Origin: a virus
DNA length: 14,431 nucleotides
Virus genome (UHGV): UHGV-1968440
Direction: 5' to 3' (one strand)
Under the pieces are notes generated by a model. The model had not been told where the DNA came from, ran no database searches, and saw only the letters and a list, made by a program, of their open reading frames with translations. This document shows, piece by piece, positions 5,657 to 11,986 of this stretch (within the stretch, counting starts at the first letter, position 1; each line of letters begins with the position of its first letter). A program made the translations under genes and the position numbers.

Positions 5657-6046
5657 ATGATTGACGCTCATGACTTCACAAGATGGGTGCGCACACAGGA
5701 CACCCGTCTGGCTCCCGTTCTTCAGGGATTATTTGATCTCTACATCCGTGGTCGTGACAACAGAGCACGCACCACAAAACCGGAGAATGCAGACACCCTT
5801 TATTTCACAGTAGACGACTGCTACCGCGTGGACTTCACACCACACGGGCTGGCGTTGCACTGCCTGACACCACACGGAGAATCACTGCTGGCGTATTACG
5901 ACTCCCCGACCTCCGTATTTGCGGCAATGCTGGCGCATCGCACTGCTGGCGGGTGTGCCTCGCTGAGTGAATACACCGCTGAATTTAACCGCCTTTCTGC
6001 CCTCTTCTCGCAGGAGTGGCAGCGCGTGACGGGATACCAGCCATGA
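5657..6046 (+). CDS. Hypothetical protein translationally coupled to the replication initiator gene
   Basis: 129-aa ORF; its TGA (6044..6046) overlaps the ATG (6043..6045) of the downstream large gene. Confidence 0.6.
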   Translation: MIDAHDFTRWVRTQDTRLAPVLQGLFDLYIRGRDNRARTTKPENADTLYFTVDDCYRVDFTPHGLALHCLTPHGESLLAYYDSPTSVFAAMLAHRTAGGCASLSEYTAEFNRLSALFSQEWQRVTGYQP

Positions 6047-8883
6047 ATGAGTTTGCATGGAGCTGGAATGAACCACGGCCAGCCATTGATCCGGCCAGAT
6101 TTACGGAGCACAGGCAGGAAACTGAAACCGACCTGCAACGCGCCATCCGTTACTACCTTGAGGCAGACAAAAAGGCTCTGGAAGAACAGGAAGCGAAGGA
6201 GGAAGCCTTTTTCGCACAATCCACCGTGGGTAAAAAACTCATGGCATCCCTTGAGGAAGCCGGACAGCGTGAAAAGCTGGCACAAAGCATCATCAGCAAG
6301 CGTCAGGCAACAGAACAAGACCCGGTGGCCCGTGCTTTTGCCACACTGAAGGTGCTTCCCGTTTATCTGCGTAAACCTCTGAGCCGCCACCTCTCTTTCC
6401 TGCGCAAAAAACAGGAAGCCGATCGCCAGAAAGGCAAAAAGAGCTGGCAGGCTGAACGCTACGCGCGCGGAACCCTGCGCAAAATATTCGAACGCCTGGA
6501 CCGCACCGACCACCGCTGGCTGACACCGGGTTATCGCTCCCTTGCCGGACGCGAACGCCTGGATGATTTGCTTTACCTGCCGCAGCTCAACAAGCACCAG
6601 ATACAGACGCTGGCCACCATGACGGCGGCGATGTTCAGCAGCACCTTCGAAAAACTCTGCGATGGCTTTGGCGCGACCGATGGTGAGCTGACCATGGATG
6701 TAACGCTGAAGGCGTATCAGATGCTGGCCCGCATGGCGTTACACCTGCACGCCATGCCTCCACATTATGACGCACTGACAACAGACAAAGACCGGAGGAA
6801 CGAACCGGACACGGAGCTGCTGCCGGGCGCAACCCTTCGCCTGACCTGTGCGGAATGGTGGAAACGCAAACTGTGGCTGTTACGTTGCGAGTGGCGGGAA
6901 GAACAACTCCGCGCCGCCTGTCTGGTTTCCAGAAAAACATCACCCTATCTGAGCCAGGACGCGTTAAGCGAGTTTCGCGCACAGCGCGAGAAAACACGCG
7001 ATTTCCTGAAAAGTTTCATGCTGGAAAATGAAGACGGGTTCACGATTGATCTCGAGACGGTGTATTACGCGGGAGTAAGTAACCCGGTTCACCGTAAGGC
7101 AGAAATGATGGCCACCATGAAGGGGCTGGAACTTCTGGCCGAAGCCCGTGGCGACAGAGCGGTGTTTCTGACTGTCACCTGCCCGTCAAAATACCACGCA
7201 ACAACGGAGAACGGTCATCCGAATCCCAAATGGAACGGGGCCACAATGCGCGACTCCAGCGATTACCTGGTTAACACGTTTTTTGCGGCGGTCCGCAAAA
7301 AACTGAACCGCGACGGCCTGCGCTGGTATGGCATCCGCACGGTGGAGCCTCACCATGACGGCACTGTGCACTGGCATATGATGGTCTTTGCACATCCGGA
7401 CGAGATTGAAACCATCGTGTCCCACGTCTGCGATATTGCCATTCAGGAAGACCGCCACGAGCTGGGCGATGACATAACTCCGCGTTTTAAGGCGGAGTAC
7501 GTCGACGGCTCAAAAGGCACGCCAACCAGCTACATCGCCACCTACATCGGAAAGAACCTGGACAGCCGCGCCGTGGATGGCATCGACCCGAAAACGGGCA
7601 AGCCACGCGTTGACCACGAAACAGGTAAATCAATGGCCGAGAGCGTGGAGCGCGCCATCGGCTGGGCGCGCCTTCACCGGGTCCGTCAGTTCCAGTTCTT
7701 TGGCATCCCCTCCCGTCAGGTGTGGCGTGAACTGCGCCGCCTTGCCAGCCAGATGGCACGCAATCCGGAAGGCCCGCAACGGCTGAAGGATGACGCAATG
7801 GACGCGGTACTCGCTGCCGCTGATGCCGGATGTTTTGCCACCTACATTGAGAAACAGGGTGGCGTACTTGTTCCACGCAAAGACTACCTGATTCGCACCG
7901 CCTACGACCTCGCAGATGAGCTGAACGATTACGGTGAACAGAGCGTACAGATTTACGGGATCTGGTCGCCGCTCATTGGGGAGTCTTCCCGCGTATGCAC
8001 GCATCCGGATAACTGGAAGCTGGTAAGACGCAAACCGGAAGCGGAAGACAGCGCCCGCGAAAATGGTTTTGACCTTCAGGGCGGCCCTGCCGCCCCTTGG
8101 ACTCGTGGCAATAACTGTCCCCGTGTACAGGAAACAGGCAACAACGGGACAGAACAGCCGGAAGAACGGCCAGCACCGTGGCCGCAGCTTCCTGACGGCG
8201 TTGAAGTAAATGAATGGATGCGCTCACTGAAACGGCACGAACGCCGGGCGCTGATGCGTTCGCTTCGTGACAAACAGGCAAAAAACAGCAGCGATGAAAT
8301 GCAGAACTGGACACAGAGCCGCAAACAGCAGCGGCCTTTGCCTGATAACCACGAGTTACTCGCTAAAGAATGGCGGGAGTCTGCTGAATCTCTCGGCCTG
8401 CATATCGGTGAACAACAGATGCAGCACCTGTTACGGGGCGGCAGTCTGTACGTTGACGGCAGCATCATTGCACCGCAGGGATTTGAAATTGTACGCAAAC
8501 CGGATACCCGCCCGGACAGCCGAATCACGCAGCTCTGGCAGCGTCTGAGCCGTAATCATGGCGTAAGCAGCACGGAGATCCGCCATAACCCGGTCGCCAG
8601 CTATCTGGCACAGCTGGGGGCATCAGACCCTGAAGCCGCCGCACGCCTGGCATCCACACTTCAGCAGGACCAGAACACCATGAAAACACCCGTTACCGTG
8701 CTTTCTGACATGCTGCGCGCCATCCGCGACGCAGAGCACGCACAGAGAATCAGTGAAACCACTGAACGCGCCAGCCGCAAAGCAGACCTGCTGCGGGGTG
8801 GCCTGACCAGTGGAAACAAAAAACAGACAGAAACGGGACTCACGAATCCCGTAAATGAGCAAAAAACGCGCAGCGATATATGA
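6043..8883 (+). CDS. A: Rolling-circle replication initiator, P2 gpA-type HUH endonuclease
   Basis: Track ORF 6016..8883; likely start MNEFAWSW at 6043. HUH metal-binding motif VHWHMMVF (codons 7366..7389) and a paired-tyrosine motif YIATYIGKN (7531..7557), as in phiX174 gpA / P2 gpA-type initiators. Last large gene of the early operon. ~946 aa, longer than P2 gpA as I recall it (~760 aa). Confidence 0.85.
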   Translation: MNEFAWSWNEPRPAIDPARFTEHRQETETDLQRAIRYYLEADKKALEEQEAKEEAFFAQSTVGKKLMASLEEAGQREKLAQSIISKRQATEQDPVARAFATLKVLPVYLRKPLSRHLSFLRKKQEADRQKGKKSWQAERYARGTLRKIFERLDRTDHRWLTPGYRSLAGRERLDDLLYLPQLNKHQIQTLATMTAAMFSSTFEKLCDGFGATDGELTMDVTLKAYQMLARMALHLHAMPPHYDALTTDKDRRNEPDTELLPGATLRLTCAEWWKRKLWLLRCEWREEQLRAACLVSRKTSPYLSQDALSEFRAQREKTRDFLKSFMLENEDGFTIDLETVYYAGVSNPVHRKAEMMATMKGLELLAEARGDRAVFLTVTCPSKYHATTENGHPNPKWNGATMRDSSDYLVNTFFAAVRKKLNRDGLRWYGIRTVEPHHDGTVHWHMMVFAHPDEIETIVSHVCDIAIQEDRHELGDDITPRFKAEYVDGSKGTPTSYIATYIGKNLDSRAVDGIDPKTGKPRVDHETGKSMAESVERAIGWARLHRVRQFQFFGIPSRQVWRELRRLASQMARNPEGPQRLKDDAMDAVLAAADAGCFATYIEKQGGVLVPRKDYLIRTAYDLADELNDYGEQSVQIYGIWSPLIGESSRVCTHPDNWKLVRRKPEAEDSARENGFDLQGGPAAPWTRGNNCPRVQETGNNGTEQPEERPAPWPQLPDGVEVNEWMRSLKRHERRALMRSLRDKQAKNSSDEMQNWTQSRKQQRPLPDNHELLAKEWRESAESLGLHIGEQQMQHLLRGGSLYVDGSIIAPQGFEIVRKPDTRPDSRITQLWQRLSRNHGVSSTEIRHNPVASYLAQLGASDPEAAARLASTLQQDQNTMKTPVTVLSDMLRAIRDAEHAQRISETTERASRKADLLRGGLTSGNKKQTETGLTNPVNEQKTRSDI

Positions 8884-8928
8884 GGCGCGCACAAAACAGG
8901 CAAAAACGGGATTTCAGAATCCCGTAAA
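8821..8928. repeat. Two copies of a ~35-bp iterated dyad element (parC-like centromere/operator or ori-associated site)
   Basis: AAACAGRCARAAACGGGAYTYASGAATCCCGTAAA at 8821..8855 and 8893..8928; each copy contains the inverted pair ACGGGA/TCCCGT; spacing ~72 bp. Copy 1 lies inside the 3' end of the A gene, copy 2 in the parM upstream region. Confidence 0.6.
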
Positions 8929-8959
8929 CGATTAATTAATCAACATAAGGAAAACCGAC

Positions 8960-9919
8960 ATGAAAATTTACATCGACGACGGCTCCACCAACATCAAGCT
9001 GGCATGGACTGAGAACGGCGAACGCCGCAACGCCATCAGCCCGAACAGCTTCAAGTCGGAATGGTCTGCGCCGTTCGGTGGCTCGCAGCCTGCTAACTAC
9101 ATGCTTGATGGCGTGCGCTATGGTTTTGATCCGGTCAGCGATCGCTTTGTCCAGACGACCGACACGCAATACCAGTACAGCGATGTGAATGTCATTGCCA
9201 TTCATCACGCGCTGGTCAAATCAGACATCACGCCACAGGAAGTGGATGTGGTTGTTACCCTGCCACTGAGCGAATATTTCGACACAAACGCACAGCCGGA
9301 CATGGCCAACATCAACCGCAAAAAAGCGAACGTCATGCGCCCGGTGGAGTACCAGAACGGCGAAGCATTCACTATCCGTAACGTACGGGTTATGCCTGAA
9401 TCCATTCCGGCTGGCTTTAAAGCACTGGCTGACATGAGTCCGTTTGAATCCCTGCTGATTGTGGATTTGGGCGGAACCACGCTGGATGTGGCAAAGGTTC
9501 AGGGGCAACTGGCAGGTATCAGCCAGGTGTTTTGCGATCCACACGTAGGCGTTTCTCTTATGGCCGATGCCGTACTGTCGGTGATGGCCACTAACGGTAT
9601 GCGCACCAGTCACCACATCGCCAATACCATTATCGAACATCGCCATAATGAAGCCTGGCTGCGCCAGCACATCCACAATGACGCGCATTACGCCAGCCTG
9701 ATGGCGGTTATTCGTGAAAAGGAAGAAACACTGAAACAACGCGTGATCCGCGCGCTGGCGGTTTTTTCGGGTTACGGGCGGGTGATGGTTGTCGGTGGCG
9801 GGGCGGAGATTGTGGCACCCGCTATCCGCGAAGCCTGCGGAGTTAATGCGACTTTCATCGCGGACGGGGTGCCACAGTTTGCTCTGGTTAATGGGCTGTA
9901 CGCAATGGACAAGGAGTAA
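8960..9919 (+). CDS. parM: ParM/StbA-like actin-type segregation ATPase
   Basis: 319-aa ORF. N-terminal MKIYIDDGSTNIKLAW, then SPNSFK, YSDVNV, HHAL, MPESIPAGF, DLGGTTLDV, GVSL, VVGGGAE and LVNGLYAM match, in order, the motifs I recall from plasmid R1 ParM (actin/ASKHA fold). SD-like AGGA 8 nt upstream of the ATG. Confidence 0.85.
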   Translation: MKIYIDDGSTNIKLAWTENGERRNAISPNSFKSEWSAPFGGSQPANYMLDGVRYGFDPVSDRFVQTTDTQYQYSDVNVIAIHHALVKSDITPQEVDVVVTLPLSEYFDTNAQPDMANINRKKANVMRPVEYQNGEAFTIRNVRVMPESIPAGFKALADMSPFESLLIVDLGGTTLDVAKVQGQLAGISQVFCDPHVGVSLMADAVLSVMATNGMRTSHHIANTIIEHRHNEAWLRQHIHNDAHYASLMAVIREKEETLKQRVIRALAVFSGYGRVMVVGGGAEIVAPAIREACGVNATFIADGVPQFALVNGLYAMDKE

Positions 9920-9923
9920 ACCA

Positions 9924-10235
9924 ATGACGACACCAACCAGACGGATAAGTTTCTATCTGAAGCCCGCCGCCGTCAAGAACGAAGGAGAAGCATGCGCCTG
10001 GCTGGACAGCCTTACACCAGAAGCCCGCAAAAGCGGCCAACGCGTGGCTTTTCTGGCCGGGCTGGCACTTCTGAAGACGAATCCGGCAGAGGCTTACCGA
10101 CTGGCCGCATGGGCTGATGATGAGATGTTACCTGTGACACAAATCAGCTCAAAAAAGTTTGAAGCACAGTCTGCACCAGTGGCTAAGATAACCAGCCAGA
10201 TGGCTGGGAATATCCGGGCGTTATTTCCTGAGTAA
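9924..10235 (+). CDS. parR: ParR/StbB-like centromere-binding adaptor
   Basis: Track ORF 9789..10235 is an upstream-extended version; ATG at 9924 has SD AAGGAG (9911..9916) and follows the parM stop by 4 nt. Translation MTTPTRRISFYLKPAAVKNEGEACAWLDSLTPEARKSGQRVAFLAGLALL parallels the N-terminal region of R1 ParR as recalled (RTIAFKLNP...LDSIPQGERSRLNRAALTAGLAL). Confidence 0.75.
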   Translation: MTTPTRRISFYLKPAAVKNEGEACAWLDSLTPEARKSGQRVAFLAGLALLKTNPAEAYRLAAWADDEMLPVTQISSKKFEAQSAPVAKITSQMAGNIRALFPE

Positions 10236-10355
10236 AAGCATCTGCGCGAAAAATGCTCACGTTTATAGAGACAGTATCATTCCATTTGGCACACTTACTT
10301 CAATAATCGATCTGTTAAACAAATAGATTGTCTATTATCTATCGATTAAAACGAT

Positions 10356-10420
10356 CAATTATCTTGACAGTAATGTGCCTTTTTGTAAGATCGTTCGCAT
10401 TGTGAGCGACAAGATAATTG
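10356..10420 (+). promoter_or_regulatory. Sigma70-like promoter bracketed by 11-bp inverted repeats (operator-controlled promoter)
   Basis: TTGACA at 10364..10369, 16-bp spacer, TAAGAT at 10386..10391. Flanked by CAATTATCTTG (10356..10366) and its inverse CAAGATAATTG (10410..10420). A 15-bp palindrome AATAGATTGTCTATT (10322..10336) lies just upstream. Confidence 0.5.
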
Positions 10421-10441
10421 CGCGGCATTGTCCATGCAAAA

Positions 10442-10469
10442 CGCCCCAATAGCAGCAACTATTGGGGCG
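10442..10469. other. Perfect 11-bp stem hairpin in the leader of the 89-aa gene
   Basis: cgccccaatag / ctattggggcg with 6-nt loop. On the minus strand it is followed by TTTTG, so it could act as a leftward terminator or as an RNA/DNA structural element. Confidence 0.45.
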
Positions 10470-10599
10470 TAAAACTCGGTCGGGCTCACTTAACCTGATA
10501 TGCGTGCCTTCCGAAGTAAATCAAAATGTGCGTCGTATATTTTATTGCTTACACGCACCTCTGTAAAGGCACGCATATTTTTCCTATGAGGTAAATAAA

Positions 10600-10869
10600 G
10601 TGCGGGCTAAAACAGGTATTTGCAAGAACCCTCATCGTTATAATCCAACATTTCTGTCTCTCCCTGAATATCAAGGACAAGAAGGTCGGCACAAATGCGC
10701 TGCCTGTGCTTTTGAGCTAGGCATAAAAGATGCGCTTGAAGGACGCGCTATGGCTCAGAATGATTTAGTTTTAGCTAACATTCCGTTTAGCCAGGCTGGA
10801 ACTGTAAGGCACAGAGATGCCTATGAAGCATATGTTCGTGGTTGGCGATTAATAAACAGCAACAATTGA
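10600..10869 (+). CDS. Hypothetical small Cys/His-containing protein (accessory island cargo)
   Basis: 89-aa ORF with GTG start; SD GAGGT at 10588..10592. Residues C8, H12, C34, C37 (CKNPH ... HKCAACAF) could form a small metal-binding site. Followed by a clear intrinsic terminator. Confidence 0.5.
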   Translation: MRAKTGICKNPHRYNPTFLSLPEYQGQEGRHKCAACAFELGIKDALEGRAMAQNDLVLANIPFSQAGTVRHRDAYEAYVRGWRLINSNN

Positions 10870-10877
10870 TACTTTTG

Positions 10878-10901
10878 AAGCGCCGATAAGGCGCTTTTTT
10901 T
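10878..10901 (+). terminator. Rho-independent terminator after the 89-aa gene
   Basis: Stem aagcgcc/ggcgctt with loop gataa, followed by TTTTT (10897..10901); starts 9 nt after the stop codon. Confidence 0.7.
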
Positions 10902-11294
10902 GTTTGCACGATAGTGCACAAGTTTGCACAATTTTTTTGAACGACTTTTTGTACTTCCGGCCCGCGTGGTGGCTGGATCCGTCAAGGATCCGTACGTGCA
11001 CAAAAAAACGCGTTTTTTCTGCGCGCAGGTGACGGGGGAACAGCCCGCGTTTCAGGGGGTAAATAGCATTCCCTGAACGATGTCGCAGAGACACAACAGA
11101 ATGGCCATATTTCTCACGCTGAGCATGAAAAAGGCGTGAGGGCTTTTGATTTGATGGGGTGAAAGGTAAGGCCGTCAAAATCGCACTGAGGCAGCGAGAA
11201 CATACAGTCAACGCGGTGGAATTGCGTAAGAGTCTGACCGTCGATGGTGGCGATAAACTGGAAGGCGTCGTGAAATTATCTGATTGATACAGGA

Positions 11295-11339
11295 GCTGCT
11301 TCGCCGGGGCATAAATTTTTTATGCCCCGGCGAAGCAGC
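11295..11339. repeat. Perfect 21-bp inverted repeat (45-bp palindrome)
   Basis: gctgcttcgccggggcataaa / tttatgccccggcgaagcagc around a 3-nt centre; GC-rich arms with an AT-rich centre; no flanking T-tract on either strand; ~90 bp upstream of the 174-aa gene. Confidence 0.7.
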
Positions 11340-11430
11340 AGACAAGCGAAGCGCGTCAGCGATACGGCACCTTGCCGACCATACTTCATAAGTGCAAAAT
11401 ACGAGCAAAGAAATCAATGGAGGCTGTCTT

Positions 11431-11955
11431 ATGGTCATTAATTACAAGCAGTTAAGAGAAAAACGGGAGCAGGTAAAGGAGAGCTTTCGCCGCAATGAAG
11501 ATCTGACCCCGCTTGTACGCCTTGCCCAGGGCATTGTTGATGCTTATGAAATCTCGCTGGAGCTGCCATCACAGACCTGGACAGATAGCGACGGTAATCG
11601 CCAGCATTACGTTTCATGCGGACTGGAAGCAGCCGAAGGATTTCGCAGAATGCCTTTATCCCAGATCCCTGCCGCTACCCCCAAAGCACGGGGCAGCAAT
11701 GATGAGCGAAAACTGACTTTTAGTATTGAAACGGTGGTTGACGACACACCTGGCGAAGTCGCGTTCGTGCACACGCCTGTTTCGATCGCAATGTATAACG
11801 ATGAAATACAGGTTCGCGTTAATAATAATATCGTGCCACTTAAAGAAGGTAATTCACCCTACACCACCGTTTGTGAAGCCATTCAATATTACGTTCTCTC
11901 TGAAATTGATAATCTCAAGCCTGACGGCACCCAGAAAATGGTTCAACTCTGGTAA
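11431..11955 (+). CDS. Hypothetical protein (orphan cargo gene adjacent to the portal gene)
   Basis: Track ORF 11392..11955; ATG at 11431 with SD GGAGG (11419..11423) at 7 nt; ~174 aa; no motif I can recognise; convergent with the portal gene. Confidence 0.6.
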   Translation: MVINYKQLREKREQVKESFRRNEDLTPLVRLAQGIVDAYEISLELPSQTWTDSDGNRQHYVSCGLEAAEGFRRMPLSQIPAATPKARGSNDERKLTFSIETVVDDTPGEVAFVHTPVSIAMYNDEIQVRVNNNIVPLKEGNSPYTTVCEAIQYYVLSEIDNLKPDGTQKMVQLW

Positions 11956-11961
11956 AAAGGA

Positions 11962-11986
11962 CAGCCCCATCACGGGGCTGTTTTTT
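11962..11986. terminator. Bidirectional intrinsic terminator between convergent genes
   Basis: Stem cagcccc/ggggctg (11962..11980) followed by TTTTTT on the plus strand and by CCTTTTTAC on the minus strand; overlaps the last codons of the portal gene. Confidence 0.7.

What the first reader, a model, noticed from the sequence alone, without database searches (positions are those of the whole stretch)
8821..8928. 35-bp iterated dyad element spanning the end of the initiator gene and the parM promoter
Two near-identical copies of AAACAGRCARAAACGGGAYTYASGAATCCCGTAAA lie ~72 bp apart (about seven helical turns). Each holds an ACGGGA/TCCCGT inverted pair. One copy is inside the coding 3' end of the A gene, which constrains that codon stretch. 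This fits a ParR-bound centromere/autoregulated promoter; it could alternatively be an initiator-binding site, since the P2 origin is reported to lie inside gene A.
Basis: seen in the sequence. Interest (0 to 1): 0.55.

Follow-up and report, generated by a model that had tools for sequence, protein, structure and literature searches.

The report
Probable partition centromere of a prophage
The repeat is real and is most likely the DNA site (centromere, parC) that a plasmid-type ParM/ParR DNA-segregation system grips, but here it sits in a P2-like prophage found in about a quarter of complete E. coli genomes and is built as two symmetric sites rather than the usual row of short direct repeats.

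Summary
Two about 42-nt direct repeats (8817-8858 and 8890-8931) lie 73 bp apart, and each holds the dyad ACGGGA-N8-TCCCGT. Copy 1 lies inside the 3' end of the gpA replication-initiator gene. Copy 2 ends 29 nt before parM.

The window is a P88-like (Xuanwuvirus, P2-like) prophage with the gene order gpA, parM, parR.

The main evidence is comparative. In Hafnia and Plesiomonas prophages (ParM 62% identical) almost all surrounding sequence has diverged. Two GGG-N10-CCC boxes nevertheless persist 72-73 bp apart at the same distance from the parM start codon. In Hafnia they lie in an unrelated ORF and a different reading frame. The element therefore travels with parM, not with gpA. The homolog of the P2 origin nick site lies about 700 nt upstream (8089-8125).

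RNA-hairpin and terminator readings are not conserved in these relatives. ParR belongs to the ribbon-helix-helix ParR family, and the box core resembles the plasmid R1 parC iteron core.

Best explanation: a ParR-bound type II centromere of unusual architecture (confidence about 0.7). No consensus promoter was found, so the "parM promoter / autoregulation" part is unproven.

Verdict: a new variant of a known kind, of moderate interest.

The parts
8817..8858 (.). Repeat unit 1: an A-rich 5' flank followed by dyad 1. It lies inside the gpA coding 3' end.
   Evidence: family D1; for the ORF.
8833..8852 (.). Dyad 1, ACGGGACTCACGAATCCCGT. It consists of two inverted GGGA/TCCC boxes (GGG at 8835-8837, CCC at 8848-8850).
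   Evidence: core conserved in 159 loci; conserved in Hafnia and Plesiomonas.
8859..8889 (.). Spacer. It carries the gpA stop codon (8881-8883) and a central GC-rich dyad, CGCGC (8867-8871) / GCGCG (8885-8889). That dyad is centred at 8878, essentially the midpoint (8879) of the two outer dyads.
   Evidence: Direct reading of the sequence; variant table.
8890..8931 (.). Repeat unit 2: an A-rich 5' flank followed by dyad 2. It is intergenic.
8906..8925 (.). Dyad 2, ACGGGATTTCAGAATCCCGT (GGG at 8908-8910, CCC at 8921-8923). It is a perfect 8-bp inverted repeat with a 4-nt centre.
8932..8959 (+). parM leader. It contains a TTAATCAA box (8936-8943) conserved in the window, Hafnia and Plesiomonas lineages, and the Shine-Dalgarno sequence AAGGA (8947-8951).
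8960..9919 (+). parM, an actin-like segregation ATPase of 319 aa.
   Evidence: PF06406 at 9.7e-81, PF21523 at 3e-68; R1 ParM, PDB 1MWK, 7.7e-92.
9924..10235 (+). parR, a ribbon-helix-helix adaptor of 103 aa. The N-terminal TRRISFYLKP strand and the C-terminal NIRALFPE tail are conserved.
   Evidence: PF10784 at 2.4e-23; phrog_2515; family profile to PDB 2JD3 at 3.9e-13.
6043..8883 (+). gpA, the P2-type rolling-circle replication endonuclease. Its last 50 nt before the final 31 nt carry repeat unit 1. The start is most likely ATG 6043.
   Evidence: (PF05840 at 5.4e-129).
8089..8125 (+). Homolog of the P2 origin nick-site region (GCCGCCCCTTGGACTCGTGGCAATAACTGT). It is listed to show that the origin is not at the repeats.
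   Evidence: P2 rep_origin at 29892.

Best explanation
The two repeat units are the cis-acting centromere (parC) of the prophage's ParMRC type II partition system.

**Proposed mechanism**
- Each 20-bp dyad offers two inverted GGGA(T)T boxes. Ribbon-helix-helix ParR dimers are proposed to bind these boxes through the invariant N-terminal strand TRRISFYLKP.
- The two dyads lie 73 bp apart, about seven helical turns, so they face the same side of the helix. The A-tract-rich DNA between them is proposed to bend so that both ParR clusters form one segrosome.
- The clustered C-terminal tails of ParR (..NIRALFPE) then capture the growing end of ParM filaments, which push the attached DNA.

**Shown here**
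- The repeat exists and exceeds chance.
- The adjacent genes are a ParM and a ParR.
- The boxes, their 72-73 bp spacing and their distance to the parM ATG are conserved in diverged lineages, whatever the upstream gene or reading frame.
- The upstream repeats differ between ParR lineages.

**Inferred**
- ParR binding, bending or looping of the DNA, and ParM capture.
- Regulation. No consensus promoter is found, so parMR is probably read through from the early operon (cox...A). ParR bound at the sites would then act, if at all, as a roadblock or weak-promoter occluder rather than as a classical operator. I give that regulatory part only about 0.35.
- Role in the phage. Because the phage integrates, the system most likely acts on excised or replicating phage circles during lytic growth.
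For: 1. **Position.** The element lies immediately upstream of parM-parR. This is where type II centromeres lie (review PMC5016525).
2. **Motor and adaptor.** ParM matches R1 ParM at E=7.7e-92. ParR matches PF10784 at 2.4e-23. A ParR-family profile led by the window protein hits pB171 ParR (PDB 2JD3) at 3.9e-13.
3. **Deep conservation.** GGG-N10-CCC occurs twice at -125/-52 (window), -128/-55 (Hafnia L050) and -131/-59 (Plesiomonas L053) relative to the parM ATG. In each lineage 0 of 20000 dinucleotide shuffles give such a pair, and 37 control par loci contain no such site. Outside the 12 core bases only 9-17 of 34 flanking positions match.
4. **Linkage to parM, not gpA.** In Hafnia an unrelated 167-aa ORF lies between gpA and parM. 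Both boxes sit in that ORF, in a different reading frame.
5. **Variation within P88-like loci.** In 159 loci the GGGAT..ATCC cores are conserved, the 4-nt centres vary, and the ParR strand TRRISFYLKP is almost invariant (3 of 159 loci show an F-to-Y or F-to-L change). This holds even for ParR alleles only 54% identical overall.
6. **Co-variation between lineages.** Plasmid relatives (ParR strand RRKI[T/M]FYL) carry TTCTC-type 11-bp iterons around a promoter. Serratia and Enterobacter prophages (NRKISFYL) carry a GGGAAC...AGAAAAA inverted pair. R1 carries AAACCC iterons.
7. **Resemblance to R1 iterons.** The half-site core GGG(A/T)TT is the reverse complement of AA(T/A)CCC and resembles the R1 iteron core. 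A weight matrix built from the phage half-sites picks four R1 iterons, 5 hits in total against a shuffle mean of 1.4.
8. **Helical phasing.** AAAC boxes across the element are phased at about 10.3 bp (p about 0.03). This agrees with the intrinsic curvature reported for R1 parC (PMC2241845).
Against: - No binding data exist.
- There are only two units (four half-sites). Known enterobacterial parC sites have 6-10 direct iterons, and the weight-matrix scan finds no further boxes.
- The boxes are inverted with a 13-14 bp centre-to-centre distance, not direct repeats at 10-11 bp.
- No consensus promoter is embedded in the element.
- The AlphaFold monomer model of ParR was too poor to confirm the fold (pLDDT 55).
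- Changes inside the arms are frequent and one-sided in some natural variants.
- One natural variant (L086) has lost one copy by a 73-bp deletion, so two copies are not strictly required for the prophage sequence to persist.
- The Serratia and Enterobacter lineage does not share the GGG-N10-CCC design.
Confidence: 0.7

Rival explanations
1. The dyads act as nucleic-acid hairpins. On the minus strand they would be tandem intrinsic terminators that stop antisense transcription entering gpA. On the plus strand they would be mRNA stem-loops at the gpA/parM junction that affect processing, stability or translation.
For: - Both dyads are scored as terminator-like on the minus strand: 8-pair stems followed by TTTTTGCC and TTCTGTCT.
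- The 156-nt region folds better than shuffles on both strands (z = -4.3 and -3.8).
- Some natural changes are G-T wobbles on the plus strand (TCCTGT and GCGGGA variants).
Against: - In Hafnia and Plesiomonas only 3-4 bp of each 'stem' survive, with 10-nt loops.
- The Hafnia region has no excess folding energy (z = +0.39) and Plesiomonas only weak excess (z = -1.7).
- No terminator-like site is scored in those two lineages.
- No compensatory double changes occur within the dyads in 159 loci. Most arm changes are plain mismatches.
- No minus-strand gene converges on the site.
- There is no U-run on the plus strand.
- There is no Rfam match.
Confidence: 0.1
2. The dyads are operators for another DNA-binding protein rather than for ParR. 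The protein could be a phage regulator or a host factor that controls read-through from the early operon into parMR.
For: - Conserved half-sites with a variable centre are typical of any dimeric regulator.
- A 13-14 bp half-site distance is unusual for ribbon-helix-helix proteins (established knowledge of Arc, MetJ, CopG and pSK41 ParR).
- No ParR binding data exist.
Against: - The boxes track parM-parR through lineages whose other early genes differ.
- The box type changes when the ParR N-terminus changes.
- The known P2 regulator sites have different forms: C O1/O2 direct repeats (annotated), and cox boxes and the Ogr TGT-N12-ACA site (from my own knowledge).
- In the complete P88 genome the pattern CGGGA-N8-TCCCG gives only four matches, two of them being the repeats.
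Confidence: 0.1
3. The element belongs to replication. It would be an accessory binding site for the gpA initiator, or part of the origin, which in P2 lies inside gene A.
For: - Copy 1 is inside gpA.
- The P2 origin is indeed intragenic (rep_origin annotation).
- The element lies only about 700 bp from the origin homolog.
Against: - The P2 nick site (..GCGCCTC/GGAGTCCTGTCAATAAC..) aligns with window 8089-8125, not with the repeats.
- Other P2-like gpA genes lose similarity to the window right after that point and lack the repeats.
- In Hafnia the boxes lie about 420 nt beyond the gpA stop, in another ORF.
- The distance to parM is conserved (-52 to -59), while the distance to the gpA stop is not.
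Confidence: 0.03
4. The repeat is a non-functional relic, a short duplication of the gpA 3' end left by recombination at a module junction.
For: - Read in frame, copy 2 would encode TKQAKTGFQNPVND*, similar to the gpA tail KKQTETGLTNPVNE encoded by copy 1.
- Variant L086 has recombined the two copies into one, giving a gpA that ends ..KTGFKNPVTD*.
Against: - The same two-box, 72-73 bp design is kept in Hafnia and Plesiomonas, where the flanks are essentially randomised and the coding context differs.
- The cores are 2-3 fold less variable than neighbouring third codon positions in 96 haplotypes.
- The single-copy state is seen in 1 of about 160 loci.
Confidence: 0.07

Closest known systems
parC of plasmid R1 (ParMRC type II partition; Dam & Gerdes 1994; Hoischen et al. 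2008, PMC2241845)
   Same: - Both lie directly upstream of parM-parR.
- Both are bipartite, with two protein-binding blocks separated by an unbound stretch (39 bp in R1, 53 bp between dyads here).
- Both are A-tract rich and probably curved.
- The box core AA(A/T)CCC / GGG(T/A)TT is similar. The Hafnia arm AAACCCAAAAAC is identical to an R1 iteron 12-mer.
- The ParM proteins are homologous, and ParR is in the same family.
   Different: - R1 has 2 x 5 direct 11-bp iterons. Here there are 2 x 2 inverted boxes, each pair forming a 20-bp dyad.
- R1 has the par promoter in the spacer. Here no consensus promoter is found, and the spacer holds the stop codon of the upstream gene.
- One half of the site is inside a coding sequence.
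- The host replicon is an integrating P2-like phage, not a plasmid.
pSK41 and pB171 ParR-centromere complexes (Schumacher 2007; Moller-Jensen 2007; summarised in PMC5016525)
   Same: - The adaptor is a ribbon-helix-helix ParR (profile hit to pB171 ParR, PDB 2JD3).
- A 20-bp unit bound by a pair of ParR dimers in pSK41 is the same size as each dyad here.
   Different: - pSK41 has four contiguous 20-bp direct repeats that form a continuous superhelix.
- Here two isolated 20-bp dyads lie 73 bp apart, so a continuous ParR array on specific sites is not possible.
Dyad-type parC sites of some enterobacterial plasmid ParMRC loci seen here (L014, L018, L020, L022: TCTCA-N3-TGAGA pairs flanking a promoter)
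   Same: - These sites show that inverted-repeat ParR sites exist naturally in this ParM/ParR family.
- They have two sites on each side of a central region.
   Different: - The half-site is different (TCTCA versus CGGGA).
- The half-site spacing is 8 bp rather than 13-14 bp.
- A clear TTGAC-type promoter sits in the centre.
- They are plasmid-borne and, to my knowledge, uncharacterised experimentally.
AlpA-AlpC-alpS of Corynebacterium glutamicum prophage CGP3 (Donovan et al. 2015, PMC4446434)
   Same: - It is a prophage-encoded actin-like filament with a DNA adaptor that binds repeats upstream of its own operon.
- It provides a precedent that such systems serve excised, replicating phage DNA rather than plasmid inheritance.
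   Different: - The proteins belong to different families (AlpC/AlpA versus ParM/ParR).
- alpS is 24 short TTAAnnG repeats.
- The phage type and the host are different.

Membership tests
Type II partition centromere (parC of ParMRC systems) | It lies immediately upstream of a parM-parR operon. | tested here: met
   The repeats occupy 8817-8931, parM 8960-9919 and parR 9924-10235. The same arrangement is seen in all relatives.
Type II partition centromere (parC of ParMRC systems) | The cognate motor is an actin-like ParM and the adaptor is a ribbon-helix-helix ParR with a conserved C-terminal ParM-binding tail. | tested here: met
   ParM matches R1 ParM at 7.7e-92. ParR matches PF10784 at 2.4e-23. 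The family profile hits PDB 2JD3 at 3.9e-13. The tail NIRALFPE is conserved. The fold itself was not confirmed, because the AlphaFold model reached only pLDDT 55.
Type II partition centromere (parC of ParMRC systems) | It is an array of several direct iterons in 10-11 bp (or 20 bp) register. | tested here: not met
   There are only two 42-nt units, giving four inverted half-sites. The weight-matrix scan finds no further boxes. Weak AAAC phasing at about 10.3 bp (p about 0.03) is the only trace of an array.
Type II partition centromere (parC of ParMRC systems) | The par promoter lies within or between the repeats and is autoregulated by ParR. | tested here: inconclusive
   No sigma-70 consensus match is found in the window, Hafnia or Plesiomonas. 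The same scan finds an 11/12 promoter in plasmid homolog L019. A weak promoter (TTCAGA-16-ATTAAT) overlapping dyad 2 cannot be excluded. Expression was not measurable here.
Type II partition centromere (parC of ParMRC systems) | The repeats co-vary with the ParR lineage (specificity pairs). | tested here: met
   Different ParR N-termini go with different upstream repeats: TRR[IV]SFYL with GGG-N10-CCC dyads; NRKISFYL with GGGAAC..AGAAAAA inverted repeats; RRKI[T/M]FYL with TTCTC iterons; and R1 RRTIAFKL with AAACCC iterons.
Type II partition centromere (parC of ParMRC systems) | It is specifically bound by ParR, stabilises a replicon in cis and exerts incompatibility. | not testable with these tools
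   This needs EMSA or footprinting and plasmid-stability or incompatibility assays.
P2-type replication origin (gpA nick site) | It shows sequence homology to the P2 nick region and is linked to gpA. | tested here: not met
   The P2 nick is annotated at 29892. The homologous stretch in the window is 8089-8125. In Hafnia the boxes are detached from gpA.
Rho-independent terminator | It has a stable GC-rich stem followed by a U-run, sits at the end of a transcription unit, and is conserved as a structure. | tested here: not met
   Minus-strand matches occur in the window only. None is found in Hafnia or Plesiomonas. No converging minus-strand gene exists. There are no compensatory changes.
Known structured RNA family (Rfam 15) | It matches a covariance model. 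| tested here: not met
   There are no matches at E<=1 in 8600-9100 on either strand.

The most novel reading that the evidence does not exclude
The ParMRC module is not a plasmid-maintenance leftover. It would be a lytic-cycle device of an integrating P2-like phage.

Its minimal two-dyad centromere sits about 700 bp from the rolling-circle origin and partly inside the initiator gene. From there it would let ParM filaments move or space replicating phage circles, as AlpAC does in CGP3.

ParR bound at the end of gene A would also gate read-through of the early operon. This would couple initiator expression, replication and DNA positioning.

A further possibility is that the chromosomal parC/ParR pair exerts partition incompatibility against incoming R1-like plasmids or related phages, because the box core resembles the R1 iteron.
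Probability: 0.2. Interest if true: 0.7.

Novelty: new variant of a known kind. Interest (0 to 1): 0.45.

Why it matters
ParMRC is the textbook plasmid segregation machine. Its centromeres are described as arrays of direct iterons around an autoregulated promoter.

Here a close ParM/ParR pair sits in an integrating P2-like prophage carried by about 23% of complete E. coli genomes, almost always on the chromosome. Its apparent centromere differs in three ways:
- It is reduced to two dyad-symmetric sites seven helical turns apart.
- It has no obvious promoter.
- It overlaps the coding end of the replication initiator gene.

If ParR binds these sites, three things follow:
- It defines a minimal, differently wired parC that could show how few ParR dimers suffice to cap a ParM filament.
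- It gives a handle (four GGG/CCC boxes) to test what a partition system does for a phage that does not live as a plasmid.
- It is a clean example of a protein-binding site maintained inside unrelated coding sequences in different reading frames.

I found no paper that describes this site.

Tried and rejected
- **AlphaFold2 model of ParR from a 19-sequence alignment.** Mean pLDDT was 54.7 and the N-terminal strand was not modelled. The model was too poor for a fold search, so none was run.
- **phmmer of ParR alone against PDB.** It gave no hit. Only the family profile reached 2JD3.
- **The search for related loci with the ParM alignment on IMG/VR.** It returned only 98-100% relatives. Hafnia ParM found nothing and Plesiomonas ParM found one Enterobacter-type locus.
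- **Architecture pattern TTGATTAA-N13-24-GGGN10CCC-N55-62-GGGN10CCC.** It gave 1 hit in IMG/VR and 52 in JGI metagenomes. None is next to a parM or parR gene, so all are chance matches and no new lineage was gained.
- **P0018, an 80%-identity ParM.** Its contig starts inside parM, so no upstream DNA was available.
- **Per-column variability across 96 haplotypes.** It gave only a modest 2-3 fold contrast and was disturbed by indel variants. I give it little weight.
- **Phasing of AAAC boxes.** It is only weakly significant (p about 0.03).
- **Liu & Haggard-Ljungquist 1994 (P2 nick site).** The paper is not held. I used the GenBank rep_origin annotation instead.
- **Rejected readings.** These are origin or initiator site, intrinsic terminators, known RNA family, and plain duplication relic. 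The reasons are given under the rival explanations.
Full report
**1. What is in the sequence**

The region 8800-8960 contains one direct-repeat family: 8817-8858 and 8890-8931. The copies are 42 nt long, 81% identical and 73 bp apart start to start. Each copy ends in a 20-nt inverted repeat: ACGGGACTCACGAATCCCGT at 8833-8852 and ACGGGATTTCAGAATCCCGT at 8906-8925. The pattern AACGGGA-N8-TCCCGTAAA occurs exactly twice in the 14.4-kb window, and no dinucleotide shuffle out of 200 reached the observed count.

Two details need correcting: the spacing is 73 rather than 72, and two central consensus positions were wrong.

Copy 1 lies inside a long ORF that ends with TGA at 8881-8883. Copy 2 is intergenic and ends 29 nt before an ATG at 8960.

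**2. Genomic context**

The window is a P88-like phage (genus Xuanwuvirus, P2-like Peduoviridae). Fourteen phage records share 8600-9200 at 96-98% identity. The P88 annotation has the same gene order: integrase, C, cox, early genes, replication endonuclease, ParM, partition protein, variable genes, then portal and terminase on the other strand.

Gene identities in the window:
- The long ORF is gpA (PF05840, 5.4e-129). Its likely start is ATG 6043, which overlaps the stop of the upstream ORF.
- 8960-9919 is a ParM (PF06406 and PF21523). It matches plasmid R1 ParM structures at E=7.7e-92.
- 9924-10235 is a 103-aa protein of family PF10784, Plasmid_stab_B (2.4e-23), and of phrog_2515, 'partition protein'.

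A profile of this protein together with its phage and plasmid relatives, including R1 ParR, hits the crystal structure of pB171 ParR/StbB (PDB 2JD3) at 3.9e-13. That structure is a ribbon-helix-helix protein according to the literature (PMC5016525). An AlphaFold monomer model was too poor to add anything.

The 173-nt stretch around the repeats is present in 1272 of 5426 complete E. coli genomes. It occurs at 1396 chromosomal places and only 2 plasmid places. This is a common integrated prophage, not a plasmid.

**3. The element belongs to parM, not to gpA**

ParM relatives at 53-62% identity all sit in P2-like prophages with the order gpA, zero to two extra ORFs, parM, parR, variable genes, portal and terminase.

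In three lineages the motif GGG-N10-CCC occurs twice at nearly the same positions relative to the parM ATG:

| Lineage | ParM identity to window | First pair | Second pair | Spacing |
|---|---|---|---|---|
| Window | - | -125 | -52 | 73 bp |
| Hafnia L050 | 62% | -128 | -55 | 73 bp |
| Plesiomonas L053 | 62% | -131 | -59 | 72 bp |

In each lineage none of 20000 dinucleotide shuffles of the 250-nt upstream region produced such a pair. Thirty-seven control par loci (plasmid-type and Serratia/Enterobacter-type) contain no GGG-N10-CCC at all. Outside the twelve core bases only 9-17 of 34 flanking positions agree between lineages, which is close to random for A-rich DNA.

In the window and in Plesiomonas the first box pair lies in the 3' end of gpA. 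In Hafnia a 167-aa ORF with no similarity to the window gpA is inserted between gpA and parM. Both box pairs lie in that ORF, in a different reading frame (TAT GGG ATT versus ACG GGA CTC).

The distance to parM is therefore conserved, while the distance to gpA, the reading frame and the encoded peptide are not. This is the signature of a DNA-level site tied to the par genes.

**4. The origin alternative**

GenBank annotates the P2 nick site at 29892, inside gene A at about codon 619. The corresponding peptide and DNA in the window gpA are GGPAAPWTRGNNCP and GCCGCCCCTTGGACTCGTGGCAATAACTGT at about 8080-8125. That is some 700 nt upstream of the repeats.

Other P2-like gpA genes are alignable with the window only up to about 8126 and do not carry the repeats. 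The initiator/origin reading is therefore not supported.

**5. Hairpin, terminator and RNA alternatives**

On the minus strand both dyads look like intrinsic terminators, and the region folds better than shuffles on both strands. This follows directly from having two similar palindromes. It is not conserved:
- The Hafnia region has no excess folding energy (z=+0.39) and Plesiomonas little (z=-1.7).
- The 'stems' in those lineages are 3-4 bp with 10-nt loops.
- The terminator scan finds nothing in either.

Among 159 P88-like loci there are 37 dyad haplotypes. The cores GGGAT..ATCC are kept and the centres vary. Changes in the arms are one-sided, either mismatches or G-T, with no compensatory pair. 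Two loci show the same position altered in both copies (L127 G-to-A; L124 position 15). That is what a shared binding protein or gene conversion would produce, not hairpin maintenance. There is no Rfam match.

**6. Comparison with known centromeres**

Locus L037 turned out to be plasmid R1 itself. Its ParM is identical to PDB 1MWK apart from one residue. Its upstream region shows the published parC: two sets of five 11-bp AAACCC-type iterons around a 39-bp promoter region, 159 bp in total, intrinsically curved, with one ParR dimer per iteron.

Most plasmid relatives retrieved here have the same design with TTCTC-type iterons around a clear TTGACA/TATAAT promoter. A few have TCTCA-N3-TGAGA dyads.

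The phage half-sites read outward-in as GGG(A/T)T(T/C), preceded by a T- or A-rich flank. That is the reverse complement of AA(T/A)CCC plus an A-tract. The Hafnia arm AAACCCAAAAAC is identical to an R1 iteron 12-mer. A weight matrix made from the 16 phage half-sites picks out four R1 iterons: 5 hits in total, against a shuffle mean of 1.4 and a maximum of 5. In the window the same matrix finds only the four arms.

The ParR N-terminal strand changes in step with the site type: TRR[IV]SFYL, NRKISFYL, RRKI[T/M]FYL and RRTIAFKL. Within the P88 group ParR alleles diverge to 54% identity. They keep the first 18 residues and the C-terminal NIRALFPE, which aligns with the ParM-binding tail motif of plasmid ParRs.

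**7. Mechanism proposed**

ParR dimers bind the four boxes. The two dyads lie about seven turns apart on one face of A-tract-phased DNA (AAAC boxes phased at about 10.3 bp, p about 0.03). They would be brought into one segrosome whose ParR tails cap ParM filaments.

Shown here are the position, family memberships, conservation and co-variation. Binding, bending and filament capture are inferred.

**8. Regulation**

The regulatory half of the classical model is doubtful here. No sigma-70 consensus promoter is found next to the repeats in any phage lineage, although the same scan finds one in a plasmid homolog. No plus-strand terminator separates gpA from parM. parMR is therefore probably part of the early operon. 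ParR bound at the site could at most act as a roadblock or occlude a weak promoter (TTCAGA-16-ATTAAT overlapping dyad 2).

Because the phage integrates, the likely substrate is the excised, replicating phage circle. The AlpA/AlpC/alpS system of prophage CGP3 is a precedent.

**9. Verdict**

The element is real and non-random, and it is most likely a parC-type centromere (0.7). It fails one defining feature of known parC sites, the tandem direct iteron array. A second feature, the embedded promoter, is unproven. I therefore file it as a new variant of a known kind, not as a standard member.

I found no publication that describes it. Interest is moderate. The mechanism class is familiar. The minimal dyad architecture, the overlap with unrelated coding sequences, and the unexplained role of a partition system in a very common integrating E. 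coli prophage are worth an experiment.

Noticed in passing
L086 (IMGVR_UViG_2657245439_000011), upstream of parM at locus position 1501: This natural variant has a single hybrid copy. The two repeats have recombined and 73 bp are deleted, so gpA now ends ..KTGFKNPVTD*. parM and parR are intact. It is 1 of about 160 loci.
   Followed up: partly
window 8867-8889: A central GC-rich dyad, CGCGC-N13-GCGCG, surrounds the gpA stop codon. It is centred at 8878, essentially the midpoint of the two outer dyads, so the whole element has pseudo-twofold symmetry. Variants include plus-strand G-T wobbles (18 loci), one compensated pair (L007, CGTGC/GCACG) and about 20 mismatched loci. The Enterobacter and Serratia lineages also have a small GC dyad at the centre of their inverted repeat.
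   Followed up: partly
window 8936-8943: A TTAATCAA box 17-24 nt upstream of the parM ATG is conserved in the window, Hafnia and Plesiomonas lineages although its surroundings have diverged. It is not a good -10 element or IHF site, and its function is unknown.
   Followed up: no
L054/L012/L138 (Serratia) and L055/L137/L139 (Enterobacter-type), 130 nt upstream of parM: This prophage lineage has a different upstream design: AAAAACGGGAACGAnATAGAAAAA - about 30 bp containing a small GC dyad - TTTTTCTnTTTCGTTCCCAAAA. It is one large inverted repeat. Its GGG and CCC are at about -118 and -55, so the outer positions match those of the window element.
   Followed up: partly
window 8127-8883 (gpA C-terminal region of about 250 aa): Similarity to other P2-like gpA genes stops right after the origin homolog. 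The remaining quarter of the protein is specific to P88-like phages and has no Pfam domain. gpA length varies from 785 to 946 aa among parMR-carrying prophages.
   Followed up: no
window 9924-10235 and relatives (alignments A2, A5): ParR is strongly mosaic among otherwise 96-98% identical prophages, with alleles at 98, 84 and 54% identity. Only the N-terminal approximately 50 aa and the last 8 aa are conserved. The linker is replaced wholesale.
   Followed up: partly
window 10236-11969, and the same slot in L002-L008, L054, L055, L213-L215: The stretch between parR and the portal gene is a variable cargo slot. In the window it holds two ORFs of unknown function (10600-10869, phrog_3941; 11392-11955, phrog_5091). 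In relatives it holds hicAB, a KAP NTPase, DUF3800, SSB, an HTH/M78 peptidase pair and membrane proteins.
   Followed up: no
L050 3453-3956 (Hafnia prophage): A 167-aa ORF with no Pfam or PHROG match is inserted between gpA and parM. Its 3' end carries both GGG-N10-CCC boxes, and its stop codon lies inside the second one.
   Followed up: partly
L010 (Vagococcus sp.), L037 (uncultured Clostridiales), L039 (Streptomyces morookaense): Genome records of unrelated taxa carry enterobacterial sequences: a P88-like prophage or the R1 parMRC locus. These are probably assembly contamination.
   Followed up: no
L217 (P88 genome) 30280-30297: A third exact match to CGGGA-N8-TCCCG (CGGGACATCTCTTTCCCG) lies inside the tape-measure gene of P88. 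The whole-genome count is 4 against 1.1 expected. I did not examine whether it is conserved.
   Followed up: no
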